16,048 nucleotides of DNA, from positions 1 through 16,048 of the IMG/VR virus record IMGVR_UViG_2636415477_000004, one strand, 5' to 3'. A program made the translations under genes and the position numbers. The stretch comes from a virus. Lineage: Duplodnaviria; Heunggongvirae; Uroviricota; Caudoviricetes. This document shows, piece by piece, positions 1,066 through 1,614 of this stretch (its first letter is position 1; each line of letters begins with the position of its first letter). The notes under the pieces were generated by a model, which had not been told where the DNA came from, ran no database searches, and was given only the letters and a program-made list of their open reading frames with translations.

Positions 1066-1614
1066 TGGCAAACGCAAAACTGCGTTATCTGAAAAATCAA
1101 AGCATTACGAGAACTGAGCAACGGCTATCCATTACAAAGCCCATCTACGGGTGGGCTTGATAATGAAACCGGAATTTATTCTTGGCAACCAGTTACGGCA
1201 GTACCACGAAACAACCCAAGCCAGTAAGTGGGGAAATAACACTGGCAGCCACTGAAAGATGAAGCTCCTGCCTTAAGGCAAAAAAGATTCTTTGTGGTGG
1301 CGGACTGATGGAAAGACATCGGTTATTGCAGAGGCCATTCAATGAGTGGTCTCGACAATGGCTTATACCCTACACGGGATAACTTAACTGATATCCCTTT
1401 TAAAGGATAAAGGTATTCAAGCCTGACACATCATGCGCTGTATCGTCGCCGTATTCCTGCATTAACAGAGACCGCAGCCCGACGGGGAACTCCTCTGCGC
1501 GAGTGTGCGGAAATAATCAAAAACGATACACACCGGGGTTTACCGCGTTAACGGAGCGCGGCGTTGTCCCCTCATAGTCGCCTGTCCGGTGCGATGGTGG
1601 AAGAAACCGAACGT

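What the first reader, a model, noticed from the sequence alone, without database searches (positions are those of the whole stretch)
1066..1614. ~550 bp with no convincing ORF inside an otherwise tightly packed operon
Everywhere else in the window genes overlap or sit within a few tens of bp. Here six-frame reading gives only short ORFs of about 30 aa: a 31-aa ORF at 1065-1160 coupled to the KilA-N stop via TGATG, and a 30-aa ORF at 1163-1255. GC looks lower than in the structural genes. There is an AACGCA-aaac-TGCGTT hairpin (1071-1086), a GCCTTAAGGC palindrome (1271-1280) and a CA-rich stretch (1204-1228). The segment may be a decayed gene, a small RNA locus, or a cargo insertion scar; it is the least explained part of the window.
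Basis: seen in the sequence. Interest (0 to 1): 0.5.

Follow-up and report, generated by a model that had tools for sequence, protein, structure and literature searches.

The report
Empty cargo slots flanked by hairpins
The gene-free 550 bp is the unoccupied docking region where related phages carry optional cargo genes, and it holds two copies of a conserved, apparently undescribed RNA hairpin that sits between late genes in prophages across the Enterobacterales.

Summary
The gap (1066-1614) is real and non-coding. It is neither a decayed gene nor a detectable sRNA gene. It is a chain of non-coding modules, each shared at about 80-100% identity with unrelated lambdoid, P22-like and Stx phages.

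- **Modules:** KilA-N trailer, hairpin HP1 (1129-1166), a 126-nt block B (1195-1320), hairpin HP2 (1323-1361), a 50-nt leader, and segment C (1434-1612). Segment C is the homologue of lambda's bor-p78 spacer, with the bor promoter hexamers degraded.
- **Empty slots:** Relatives plug accessory genes in at fixed junctions. At 1320|1321 they carry Phage_gp49_66, DUF551 or other small ORFs. At 1411|1412 they carry DUF2560 or P22 pid. Near 1612 they carry TonB_C, or bor and ybcV. Here all slots are empty.
- **Hairpins:** HP1 and HP2 belong to one hairpin family with an invariant base and CA/GA internal loop, a variable compensated stem, frequent UNCG loops and sense-strand G·U pairs. The family is absent from Rfam. 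It lies 0-4 nt after stop codons in late operons from Escherichia to Xenorhabdus.

My inference is that the hairpins act as punctuation in the late mRNA, for stability or processing, and also serve as homology patches for cassette exchange. That function is untested.

The parts
544..1065 (+). KilA-N domain gene (context). It is itself an optional late-region gene; relatives carry Rha or a small ORF here.
   Evidence: Pfam KilA-N, E = 8e-22. Rha replaces it in P22, POCJ13 and phiKp_30.
1066..1128 (+). KilA-N trailer (3' UTR). It contains the hairpin at 1071-1086 and is inherited together with KilA-N.
   Evidence: Co-linear with KilA-N in L001, L004 and L005 at 97-99.7% identity. Not unusually structured, z = 0.1. 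The 31-aa ORF is not conserved as a protein.
1129..1166 (+). HP1, hairpin family copy 1: C-AUUA / CA / AAGCCCAUC [UACG] GGUGGGCUU / GA / UAAU-G
   Evidence: Model R1 scores 59.7 bits, E = 1.5e-12. MFE -20.6 kcal/mol, z = -5.2, against -16.1 on the minus strand. Covariation.
1167..1194 (+). Spacer between HP1 and block B. It is present only in phages that have HP1 upstream of block B.
1195..1320 (+). Block B, a 126-nt non-coding block at about 95-100% identity in 129 loci. It starts directly at the Rha stop codon in Rha phages. Its function is unknown.
   Evidence: The few variable sites are not 3-periodic and there is a 1-nt A-run indel. No significant fold, z = -0.9 and -1.7. Found only in Escherichia, Salmonella, Shigella and Klebsiella phage DNA.
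1320..1321 (.). Cargo slot 1 junction (GGAAAGACATC|). It is empty here.
   Evidence: Of 133 loci, 86 are empty. The rest carry Phage_gp49_66 (Sf6 gene 66), a 23-aa ORF, a 57-aa ORF, DUF551 or an 80-aa ORF.
1323..1361 (+). HP2, hairpin family copy 2: U-AUUG / CA / GAGGCCAUUC [AAU] GAGUGGUCUC / GA / CAAU-G
   Evidence: Model R1 scores 57.7 bits, E = 4.4e-12. MFE -18.9 kcal/mol, z = -5.2, against -10.2 on the minus strand. Compensatory differences from the Sf6-type and P22-type alleles.
1362..1411 (+). Conserved leader after HP2. It holds two small hairpins of a second recurrent type, YAU(A)CCC-loop-GGGAUAA, at 1365-1383 and 1391-1410.
   Evidence: Identical or near-identical in more than 100 loci. 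The same hairpin type occurs in tandem after HP in Enterobacter and Leclercia prophages. Weak fold, z = -2.2. Not modelled.
1411..1412 (.). Cargo slot 2 junction (GGATAAA|). It is empty here.
   Evidence: About 95 of 133 loci continue with the RBS and DUF2560 gene (Sf6 gene 67 / P22 orf80). 22 continue with segment C, as here. Others carry different ORFs. In P22 the reverse moron pid starts right after GGGGATAAAA (deletion primer in PMC8835761).
1434..1612 (.). Segment C, a non-coding module homologous to the lambda/DLP12 bor-p78 (borD-ybcV) intergenic spacer. It lies on the 3' side of ylcI here.
   Evidence: 80% identical to lambda and HK630. There are 103 unique homologues with sharp conservation borders at 1434 and 1612 and indels that are not multiples of 3. 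No significant fold, z > 0.
1448..1474 (-). Position equivalent to the promoter annotated in HK630 upstream of bor. Both hexamers are degraded here.
   Evidence: HK630 regulatory feature at 45281-45307. Mapping and comparison: lambda TGGACA...TACAAT against window CGGTCT...TACGGC.
1612..1614 (.). Cargo slot 3 / end of segment C. Relatives diverge here.
   Evidence: A TonB_C gene is inserted in E. coli 89-3156. A 460-bp insert is present in FDAARGOS_144. A lambda-type cos follows directly in UPEC-245U. p78/ybcV follows in lambda and DLP12.
1615..1815 (-). ylcI/ynfO-family gene (DUF3950), the right-hand neighbour (context).
   Evidence: Pfam DUF3950, E = 4e-20. RefSeq annotation of relatives.

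Best explanation
The 549 bp are genuine non-coding DNA. They form the unoccupied accessory-gene ('moron') docking region that lambdoid, P22-like and Stx phages keep between the lysis cassette and the packaging genes.

**Shown.** The region is a chain of independent, widely shared modules: KilA-N trailer, HP1, spacer plus block B, HP2, a short leader, and segment C. Relatives carry different small genes inserted at the same junctions (1320|1321, 1411|1412, about 1612). Here every slot is empty. HP1 and HP2 are two copies of one hairpin family whose stem is kept by compensatory changes and which folds properly only on the sense strand.

**Inferred.** The hairpins are read as RNA in the Q-antiterminated late transcript. 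They sit directly after the stop codon (or the private terminator) of one cistron and a few nucleotides before the next ribosome-binding site. They most likely act as intercistronic punctuation, either as a stable 3' barrier or as a processing site that sets the fate of each cassette's message in read-through transcripts. Because their base and neighbouring leaders are identical between phages, they also serve as homology patches through which cassettes are swapped, duplicated or lost.

Block B and segment C are lineage-restricted linker DNA with no detectable coding or structural signal. Segment C is what remains of the bor-p78 spacer of lambda-type phages, without bor and with a degraded bor promoter.
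For: **Non-coding**
- No ORF of 60 aa or more.
- Variable sites in block B are not 3-periodic and a 1-nt indel segregates.
- Segment C has indels of 1, 9, 12, 13 and 17 nt.
- The small ORFs are frameshifted or changed non-synonymously in relatives.
- There are no tRNA genes and no Rfam hits.

**Modular and shared**
- 3420 of 5426 E. coli genomes match the 900-1900 stretch.
- Pieces occur in HK97, P22, Sf6, POCJ13, Chlobot and lambda with different break-points.
- Only 11 HP copies occur in 92 loci that contain segment C, so the modules are independent.

**Slots**
- At least five alternative continuations occur at the same junction after block B, and all rejoin at HP2.
- The inserted genes are Phage_gp49_66, DUF551, DUF2560 and TonB_C.
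- P22 pid is described as a moron locus at this place (PMC3573128, PMC8835761).

**Hairpin family**
- 98.6% of cells are paired, 9 of 15 pairs change on both sides, and slid controls give 34-52%.
- An unbiased genome scan specified only the base and 3 stem pairs. About 42 Enterobacterales hits showed 5-8 further pairs with many different stems, while about 30 chance hits elsewhere showed 0-2 pairs.
- The genome-derived alignment gives 96.3% paired and 11 of 15 pairs changed on both sides.
- Sense-strand specificity: G·U pairs, UNCG loops (UACG, UGCG, UCCG), and a better MFE on the plus strand.
- Exactly two copies occur in the window and two in the whole HK97 genome, all sense to the late operon.

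**Position**
- HP starts 0-4 nt after stop codons and ends 13-40 nt before the next start.
- It follows a Big_2 major-tail-like gene and precedes DUF6246, follows Rz before KilA-N, follows Rha, or follows bona fide intrinsic terminators of cassette genes.

**Exchange at the hairpins**
- In many phages HP1 is fused directly to the HP2 leader, with no block B.
- One locus has a chimeric hairpin whose two arms are of different types.
Against: - No transcript, processing or half-life data were available, so the RNA function is inferred from sequence alone.
- The helix has 15 pairs and a 2x2 loop, which is short for a classical RNase III site.
- The hairpin lacks a U-tract, so it is not a terminator.
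- A hairpin in single-stranded DNA would also tolerate G·T pairs. A recombination role at the DNA level is therefore not excluded.
- Block B is conserved at about 97% across very different phages and I can give no function for it. Its conservation may simply reflect recent spread.
- Whether the empty state is ancestral or a loss cannot be decided.
- My hairpin collection started from loci found by exact words, so its diversity is under-sampled.
Confidence: 0.7

Rival explanations
1. The hairpins act at the DNA level. They would be extruded or single-stranded structures that a recombination system recognises in order to insert and exchange cargo cassettes, comparable to integron attC sites or the PeSL repeats of T4-type phages.
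For: - Cassettes begin and end at fixed junctions next to HP.
- Different ORFs share the same leader and the same terminator-plus-HP end.
- HP1/HP2 fusions and one chimeric hairpin exist.
- The architecture resembles attC: invariant base, invariant unpaired CA/GA, variable stem and loop.
Against: - The loops are enriched in UNCG tetraloops, whose special stability is an RNA property (established knowledge).
- HP is always sense to the operon and tightly placed between a stop codon and the next RBS, including between conserved tail genes where no cassette variation is evident.
- There is no GTTRRRY/RYYYAAC core, and no dedicated recombinase gene was seen nearby.
- Ordinary homologous recombination over the roughly 90-nt HP-plus-leader patch would be enough to explain the exchanges.
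Confidence: 0.15
2. The gap encodes an independently transcribed small RNA. It could come from block B on the plus strand, or from the minus strand, running from the Pbor-like region near 1450 to the GCCTTAAGGC hairpin near 1265.
For: - Block B is very highly conserved and has a CA-rich stretch.
- A terminator-like site lies on the minus strand at 1284-1265.
- Segment C is homologous to the lambda bor promoter region.
- Prophage late regions are known to hold sRNA genes (PMC4104026).
Against: - Rfam gives no hit, including AgvB, AsxR, Esr41 and STnc100. Those sRNAs lie 3' of PR', not here.
- No plus-strand promoter was found.
- The Pbor -10 is TACGGC and the -35 is degraded.
- The minus-strand 'terminator' has 3 G·U pairs and a poor tail.
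- Block B has no significant fold and its variable sites break the predicted stems.
- The D23580 annotation from many RNA-seq conditions lists rha and then pid with no ncRNA between them, although BTP1 carries block B and HP2 there.
Confidence: 0.1
3. The gap is a decayed or recently deleted gene, that is, a pseudogene remnant.
For: - Relatives carry genes at 1320|1321 and 1411|1412.
- Some gene callers predict short ORFs on either strand in relatives.
Against: - No part of the gap aligns to the coding part of those genes. Only their flanks are present.
- The empty-site hairpin allele (GAGGCC.../...GGTCTC) differs consistently from the allele that accompanies cassettes (AAAGCC.../...GGCTTT). 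The empty state, found in 86 of 133 loci, is therefore an old and widespread allele rather than a fresh deletion.
- There is no coding signature.
Confidence: 0.05
4. The region is translated as a chain of coupled micro-ORFs. KilA-N's TGATG would lead into the 31-aa ORF, whose stop lies in TGATAATG, leading into the 30-aa ORF. The ORFs would encode micro-proteins or keep ribosomes on the message.
For: The stop-start overlaps TGATG (1063-1067) and TGATAATG (1158-1165) exist. The HP 3' arm always carries AUG.
Against: - The 31-aa ORF differs from its closest relative by three substitutions, all non-synonymous.
- The 30-aa ORF is frameshifted by a 1-nt insertion in more than 20 relatives and is absent in Rha phages.
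- The HP2 AUG opens only a 9-codon ORF.
- Q-modified polymerase does not need translation to resist Rho (established knowledge).
Confidence: 0.03

Closest known systems
Morons and moron-acceptor sites of lambdoid late operons (Juhala et al. 2000, cited from knowledge and via PMC4104026 and PMC2629481); specifically the P22/BTP1 pid moron locus (Cenens 2013, PMC3573128; Wolput 2022, PMC8835761)
   Same: - Same genomic place, between the lysis genes (plus Rha or KilA-N) and the small terminase.
- Optional small genes of unrelated function, some with their own terminator, are inserted between sequences that are adjacent in other phages.
- P22 pid sits at the junction equivalent to window 1411|1412.
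   Different: - This window holds no moron at all, only the flanks.
- The literature I could read describes the inserted genes. It does not describe conserved hairpins or fixed junctions.
Boundary (linker) sequences between modules of lambdoid phages (Susskind and Botstein's modular theory; 'bsq' features of HK620 and Sf6, Clark et al. 2001; from knowledge, with one bsq feature visible in the Sf6 record)
   Same: Short conserved sequences at gene or module borders that allow homologous exchange between otherwise different phages.
   Different: - The annotated bsq7 of Sf6 lies inside gene 63, not at HP.
- HP is conserved as a structure with compensatory changes, which a pure homology linker does not require.
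PeSL repeats (promoter-early stem-loop) flanking shuffled ORFs in hyperplastic regions of T4-type phages (Arbiol et al. 2010; from knowledge)
   Same: A repeated stem-loop-containing element brackets small optional ORFs and appears to mediate their shuffling. Different ORFs share identical flanks.
   Different: - PeSL includes an early promoter, whereas no promoter is detectable in or next to HP.
- The phage group and the operon are different.
Intercistronic stable hairpins in phage and bacterial polycistronic mRNAs: C(UUCG)G hairpins of T4 (Tuerk et al. 1988), REP elements as 3' stabilisers (Newbury et al. 1987), T7 RNase III sites, lambda sib retroregulation (all from knowledge)
   Same: - Sense-strand RNA hairpin placed between cistrons, often capped by a UNCG tetraloop.
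- Located just after a highly expressed gene such as the major tail-like gene.
- Like sib, it would be present only in read-through transcripts when a private terminator precedes it.
   Different: - HP has its own conserved base (CAUUA...UAAUG) and an invariant CA/GA internal loop. This points to specific recognition rather than generic stability.
- The helix is shorter than classical RNase III substrates.
- No cleavage or stability data exist.
Integron attC sites
   Same: Structure rather than sequence is conserved. The base is invariant, unpaired bases are conserved, and the distal part is variable. The element lies at the 3' end of each cassette.
   Different: There is no R'/R'' core (GTTRRRY) and no integron integrase. 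HP is much smaller (38-42 nt). The UNCG loops and the position relative to stop codons and RBS argue for RNA.
Prophage anti-sRNAs and sRNAs of pathogenic E. coli (AgvB, AsxR, Esr41, Pas, STnc100; PMC4104026; bioRxiv 10.64898/2026.05.13.724894)
   Same: Non-coding elements located in lambdoid prophage late regions at moron sites.
   Different: - Those are discrete, promoter-driven sRNAs located 3' of PR' or near Q and the holin.
- None matches this region.

Membership tests
Protein-coding gene or pseudogene | An ORF or frame is conserved among relatives, with substitutions concentrated at third positions and indels in multiples of 3. | tested here: not met
   Variable sites in block B fall on all codon positions, and a 1-nt A-run indel is present. 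Segment C has indels of 1, 9, 12, 13 and 17 nt. The small ORFs are frameshifted or changed non-synonymously.
Protein-coding gene or pseudogene | Similarity to the coding sequence of the genes that occupy this place in relatives. | tested here: not met
   Only the flanks of Sf6 gene 66, DUF2560 and TonB_C align. The coding parts are absent.
Known RNA families (Rfam 15, including AgvB RF02702, AsxR RF02703, Esr41, STnc100, isrK, Proteo-phage-1) | The covariance-model score reaches the family's gathering threshold. | tested here: not met
   No match at gathering thresholds in the whole window. With E up to 10, the only hit in the gap is a 16.8-bit partial Proteo-phage-1 match against a threshold of 42.
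Independent sRNA gene | Its own promoter and a Rho-independent terminator bracket about 50-300 nt. | tested here: not met
   No plus-strand promoter. One weak minus-strand terminator-like site. The Pbor-equivalent hexamers are degraded.
Independent sRNA gene | A discrete transcript is detected. | not testable with these tools
   Indirect only. The D23580/BTP1 annotation lists no ncRNA between rha and pid, where block B and HP2 lie.
Moron (Juhala et al. 2000) | One or more genes, often with their own promoter and terminator, are present between two sequences that are adjacent in related phages. | tested here: not met
   The window holds no gene between the flanks. Relatives do, and some of their inserts have clear terminators. 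The window is therefore the empty state of moron sites, not a moron.
Intrinsic (Rho-independent) terminator | A G+C-rich stem-loop is followed directly by a U-tract. | tested here: not met
   HP1 and HP2 have stable stems, but they are followed by GAUAAUG-A/G with no U-run, and the scan did not report them. In other phages a true terminator sits immediately upstream of HP.
RNase III processing site (T7 R1.1 type, lambda sib type) | About two turns of coaxial double helix, often interrupted by an internal loop. | tested here: inconclusive
   HP has 5 + 10 pairs around a 2x2 CA/GA loop. This is shorter than classical substrates but above the minimal length.
RNase III processing site (T7 R1.1 type, lambda sib type) | Cleavage in vivo that depends on rnc. 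| not testable with these tools
   No data available.
Integron attC | Inverse core RYYYAAC and core GTTRRRY at the base, with an integron integrase in cis or in trans. | tested here: not met
   The base is CCATTACA...GATAATGG in about 245 of 246 instances. No integrase of that type was seen in the loci, but this was not searched systematically.
PeSL-type mobile regulatory cassette | The repeat contains a promoter plus a stem-loop and flanks variable ORFs. | tested here: inconclusive
   Flanking of variable ORFs is met. A promoter was not found in the window copies. Promoters in the cassette leaders of relatives were not examined.
Lambda bor-p78 intergenic region with Pbor | Sequence homology to lambda 46.8-47.0 kb (HK630 45267-45380). 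| tested here: met
   80% identity over 114-116 nt, extending to the GGAAGAAACCGRACG end.
Lambda bor-p78 intergenic region with Pbor | Intact promoter hexamers and a downstream bor gene. | tested here: not met
   The -10 is TACGGC where lambda has TACAAT, the -35 is changed, and there is no bor gene.

The most novel reading that the evidence does not exclude
The hairpin family, together with the small YAUCCC...GGGAUAAA hairpins and the shared cassette leaders, could be the recognition structure of a dedicated hairpin-guided cassette-exchange system of temperate Enterobacterales phages. This would be a phage counterpart of integron attC recombination. It would explain why unrelated cargo genes sit at nucleotide-identical junctions in lambdoid, P22-like and Stx phages.
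Probability: 0.1. Interest if true: 0.85.

Novelty: new variant of a known kind. Interest (0 to 1): 0.5.

Why it matters
**For annotation.** This stretch, present in most E. coli genomes, should be read as empty cargo slots. It is not a pseudogene or an sRNA gene.

**For phage biology.** The junctions at 1320|1321, 1411|1412 and about 1612 are precise, reusable places where lysogenic-conversion and defence-type cargo enters phages, including Stx phages and P22. pid is one such example.

**The hairpin family.** It has strong covariation support, is absent from Rfam, and occurs in prophage late operons from Escherichia to Xenorhabdus. It is a concrete handle on two open questions:
- how expression of optional genes is insulated within a 20-kb antiterminated transcript;
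- what makes mosaic joints fall at the same nucleotide in unrelated phages.

Both questions can be tested directly with stem, compensatory and loop mutants.

Tried and rejected
- **Rfam.** Searched at gathering thresholds and at E up to 10. Nothing usable.
- **AgvB/AsxR idea.** This was prompted by the CA-rich stretch and rejected. Those sRNAs lie 3' of PR' and do not match.
- **tRNA or tmRNA.** None found.
- **Minus-strand 47-aa ORF (1176-1319), called as a gene in phage Chlobot.** Rejected on codon-position and indel grounds.
- **Hairpins predicted inside block B.** The segregating T1243C breaks the CCAGT/ACTGG stem, and there is no significant fold.
- **RNAalifold on 89 unique segment C sequences.** Only a weak consensus, with a covariation term of about 1.7 kcal. 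A possible variable hairpin at 1535-1571 was seen by eye but not established.
- **HP3 (GGGAUA...UAUCCC, 1376-1397) followed by UUUU as an attenuator, with the 9-codon ORF from the HP2 AUG.** Considered and left as speculation.
- **Literature searches.** Searches for boundary sequences, late-operon stem-loops and P22-like late regions found no description of the hairpin. The library is incomplete, so this is not proof of novelty.
- **Protein-database searches.** Gene callers sometimes call them, so hits would not be informative.
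Full report
**Setting.** The window is the late region of a lambdoid prophage with HK97-type packaging and head genes. On the plus strand it carries the end of Rz (to 342), a KilA-N gene (544-1065; Pfam E = 8e-22), an HNH gene (1857-2222), and small and large terminase (2512-4733), followed by head and tail genes. A DUF3950 ylcI/ynfO-family gene lies on the minus strand at 1615-1815. The flagged stretch 1066-1614 lies between KilA-N and ylcI.

- No ORF of 60 aa or more exists on either strand. The longest inside are 33-49 aa.
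- It is the largest gene-free interval of the window.
- The named small ORFs, hairpin, palindrome (actually 1270-1279) and CA-rich run are there.
- GC is low (0.45-0.47) only in the first 350 bp. The last 200 bp are at 0.55.
- The 1071-1086 hairpin is not exceptional (z = 0.1).
- Two much stronger hairpins, at 1129-1166 and 1323-1361, were missed (z = -5.2 each).

**The gap is not private to this prophage.**
- The stretch 900-1900 matches 3420 of 5426 complete E. coli genomes. RefSeq annotates nothing inside the gap.
- Pieces of it occur in 200-430 phage records: HK97, P22, Sf6, many Salmonella P22-like phages, Stx phages and lambda.
- Different phages share different pieces, with break-points near 1130, 1195, 1320, 1411, 1434 and 1612.
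- The gap is therefore a mosaic of modules.

**None of the modules codes for protein.**
- Block B (1195-1320) is 95-100% identical in 129 loci.
- Its few variable sites fall on all codon positions of the one long minus-strand ORF, and a 1-nt indel in the A-run segregates.
- The 31-aa ORF after KilA-N differs from a P22-like relative at three sites, all non-synonymous.
- The 30-aa ORF is frameshifted by a 1-nt insertion in more than 20 relatives and is missing where Rha precedes block B.
- Segment C (1434-1612) has 103 unique homologues, with indels of 1, 9, 12, 13 and 17 nt.
- There are no tRNA genes and no Rfam family, even at E up to 10.

**The modules are the flanks of cargo slots.**
- *Slot 1 (GGAAAGACATC|, 1320|1321).* 86 of 133 loci continue straight into HP2, as here. 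The others carry:
  - a 424-448-nt insert encoding Sf6 gene 66 (Pfam Phage_gp49_66);
  - a 139-nt insert with a 23-aa ORF;
  - inserts of about 280-690 nt with a 57-aa ORF;
  - inserts of about 390-414 nt with DUF551 or an 80-aa ORF.

  All of them rejoin at HP2.
- *Slot 2 (GGATAAA|, 1411|1412).* About 95 loci continue with an RBS and a DUF2560 gene (Sf6 gene 67, P22 orf80). 22 continue with segment C, as here. Others carry different ORFs. In P22 and BTP1 the reverse moron pid begins at this junction. The published deletion primer ends at ...GGGGATAAAA.
- *Slot 3 (end of segment C, about 1612).* Relatives carry a TonB_C gene, a 460-bp insert, p78/ybcV, or a lambda-type cos directly.
- In this prophage all three slots are empty.
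- Cassette-bearing loci carry a different HP2 allele (AAAGCC.../...GGCTTT) from empty ones (GAGGCC.../...GGTCTC). The empty state is therefore a widespread allele and not a fresh deletion.

**Segment C.** It is about 80% identical to the lambda/HK630 spacer between bor and p78, and to the DLP12 borD-ybcV spacer. The promoter annotated there in HK630 maps to window 1448-1474 on the minus strand. Here the -10 reads TACGGC instead of TACAAT, the -35 is also changed, and there is no bor gene. The segment does not fold better than shuffles. Only 11 HP copies occur in 92 loci that contain segment C, so the two are independent.

**The hairpin family.** HP1 and HP2 share one architecture:
- a base helix (C)AUUA/UAAU(G);
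- an invariant 2x2 internal loop CA/GA;
- a 9-10-bp stem;
- a 3-6-nt loop.

The evidence for a conserved structure is as follows.
- Thirty-three distinct copies pair in 98.6% of cells, and 9 of 15 pairs change on both sides. Sliding the partner by 1-3 columns gives 34-52%. That collection was partly filtered for pairing, so I ran an unbiased test.
- The unbiased test scanned one genome per species with CATTACAAAG-N14-24-CTTGATAATG, leaving the inner stem unspecified.
  - About 42 of the 72 hits are in Enterobacterales. These include Enterobacter, Leclercia, Pantoea, Serratia, Xenorhabdus, Morganella, Budvicia and Siccibacter, plus a few mis-binned MAGs.
  - Almost all of those show 5-8 further consecutive pairs, built from many different stems.
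  - About 30 hits in unrelated taxa, mostly inside ABC-transporter genes, show 0-2 pairs.
- The model-based alignment of the genome copies gives 96.3% paired, with 11 of 15 pairs changed on both sides.

**Strand and copy number.**
- G·U pairs are frequent at several positions. They would become A·C mismatches on the other strand.
- Loops are often UNCG (UACG, UGCG, UCCG).
- The plus strand folds better than the minus strand: -20.6 against -16.1 kcal/mol for HP1, and -18.9 against -10.2 for HP2.
- The window has exactly two copies and the whole HK97 genome has exactly two, all in the sense of the late operon. The lambda, DLP12 and Qin pieces have none.

**Where the hairpin sits.**
- It starts 0-4 nt after a stop codon and ends 13-40 nt before the next start codon.
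- It lies after a Big_2 major-tail-like gene and before a DUF6246 gene in Xenorhabdus, Pantoea, Serratia and Siccibacter; in Morganella the same Big_2 gene precedes it, but the nearest called ORF downstream starts 431 nt away.
- It lies after Rz and before KilA-N in Pantoea stewartii, and after Rha in Enterobacter vonholyi.
- It lies between Q and the holin, next to an HNH-like ORF, in two viral contigs.
- It lies immediately after bona fide intrinsic terminators of cassette genes.
- It has no U-tract, so it is not a terminator.

**Mechanism.**
- *Shown:* a sense-strand hairpin with a conserved base and internal loop punctuates late-operon cistrons and the ends of cargo cassettes.
- *Inferred (about 0.4):* it acts in the antiterminated late mRNA as a stability barrier or processing site. 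Where a private terminator precedes it, it would be present only in read-through transcripts, as with lambda sib.
- *Also inferred:* it serves as a homology patch for exchange.
  - Many phages have HP1 fused directly to the HP2 leader, without block B.
  - One locus has a hairpin whose two arms are of different alleles.
  - Different ORFs share the same leader and the same terminator-plus-HP end.
- A role as a single-stranded DNA recombination signal is not excluded (0.15).

**Block B.** It remains unexplained. It is restricted to Escherichia, Salmonella, Shigella and Klebsiella phage DNA, is not structured and is not coding. No ncRNA is annotated over its BTP1 copy.

**Comparison with known systems.**
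- The locus is the empty form of a known kind of site, the late-region moron site exemplified by P22 pid.
- The hairpin resembles intercistronic stabiliser or processing hairpins (T4 CUUCGG hairpins, REP elements, T7 RNase III sites, lambda sib). In its cassette-flanking role it resembles PeSL repeats and attC.
- It meets the defining features of none of them: there is no promoter, no U-tract and no attC core, and the helix is short.
- It matches no Rfam family. I found no description in the searchable literature, which is not proof of novelty.

**Verdict.** The gap itself is ordinary once relatives are consulted. I rate interest at 0.5 and novelty as a new variant of a known kind.

Noticed in passing
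window 1362-1411; also L306, L352, L331, L354, L285 and L008 (P22): A second recurrent small hairpin type, YAU(A)CCC-loop-GGGAUAA(A), often occurs in tandem right after HP. The window copies are at 1365-1383 and 1391-1410. Loop length varies from 4 to 8 nt, which argues for a hairpin rather than a double-stranded DNA operator. The 3' arm of the first copy and the 5' arm of the second can pair instead (1376-1397), and that pairing is followed by UUUU.
   Followed up: partly
L113 (viral contig), the hairpin listed: A chimeric hairpin. Its 5' arm and loop are of the cassette-type HP2 allele and its 3' arm is of the empty-site allele, leaving two mismatches at the stem base. This looks like a crossover inside the hairpin.
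   Followed up: no
L040, L066 and L017 (inserts at the junction equivalent to window 1320|1321): A DUF551 ORF and an unrelated 80-aa ORF share the same 5' leader of about 95 nt and the same terminator-plus-HP 3' end. A 57-aa ORF cassette shares part of that leader. The ORF is therefore the variable part of a constant frame.
   Followed up: partly
L006 2325-2340 and 2932-2945 (E. coli 89-3156): The insert carrying a TonB_C-domain lipoprotein-like gene at the end of segment C is bracketed by AACCGGACG and AACCGAACG. This could be a 9-nt direct repeat or a microhomology.
   Followed up: no
window 373-398 and 404-421: Two intrinsic terminators follow Rz: GCCTCGCgatGCGGGGCTTTTT and ATGCGTaccgcaACGCATGTTTTTT. 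The first type also precedes HP in other phages. The weak Rfam isrJ hit at 327-394 is just this terminator.
   Followed up: partly
window 2314-2441: Four copies of ATGTTAAC(TGG), in direct and inverted orientation, lie between the HNH gene and the small terminase gene. They are probably cos or terminase-binding repeats. A G8 run lies at about 2231-2238.
   Followed up: no
L301, L303, L335, L341, L346 (GTDB representative MAGs): MAGs labelled Nanosynbacter, Bacillota and Collinsella carry DNA about 97% identical to E. coli phage block B and HP. This is most likely mis-binned or contaminating enterobacterial phage contigs.
   Followed up: no
L029 5006-5043 and L063 8752-8789: HP copies with quite different stems lie in the other late moron site, between the Q antiterminator and the holin, next to an HNH/NUMOD4-like ORF.
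   Followed up: partly
window 1535-1571: A possible variable hairpin inside segment C: GGGG-UUUA-CCGCG...CGCGG-CGUUGU-CCCC. In POCJ13 it becomes GGG-...CUCAU...AUGGG...-CCC, which looks compensatory. It was seen by eye and was not established statistically.
   Followed up: no
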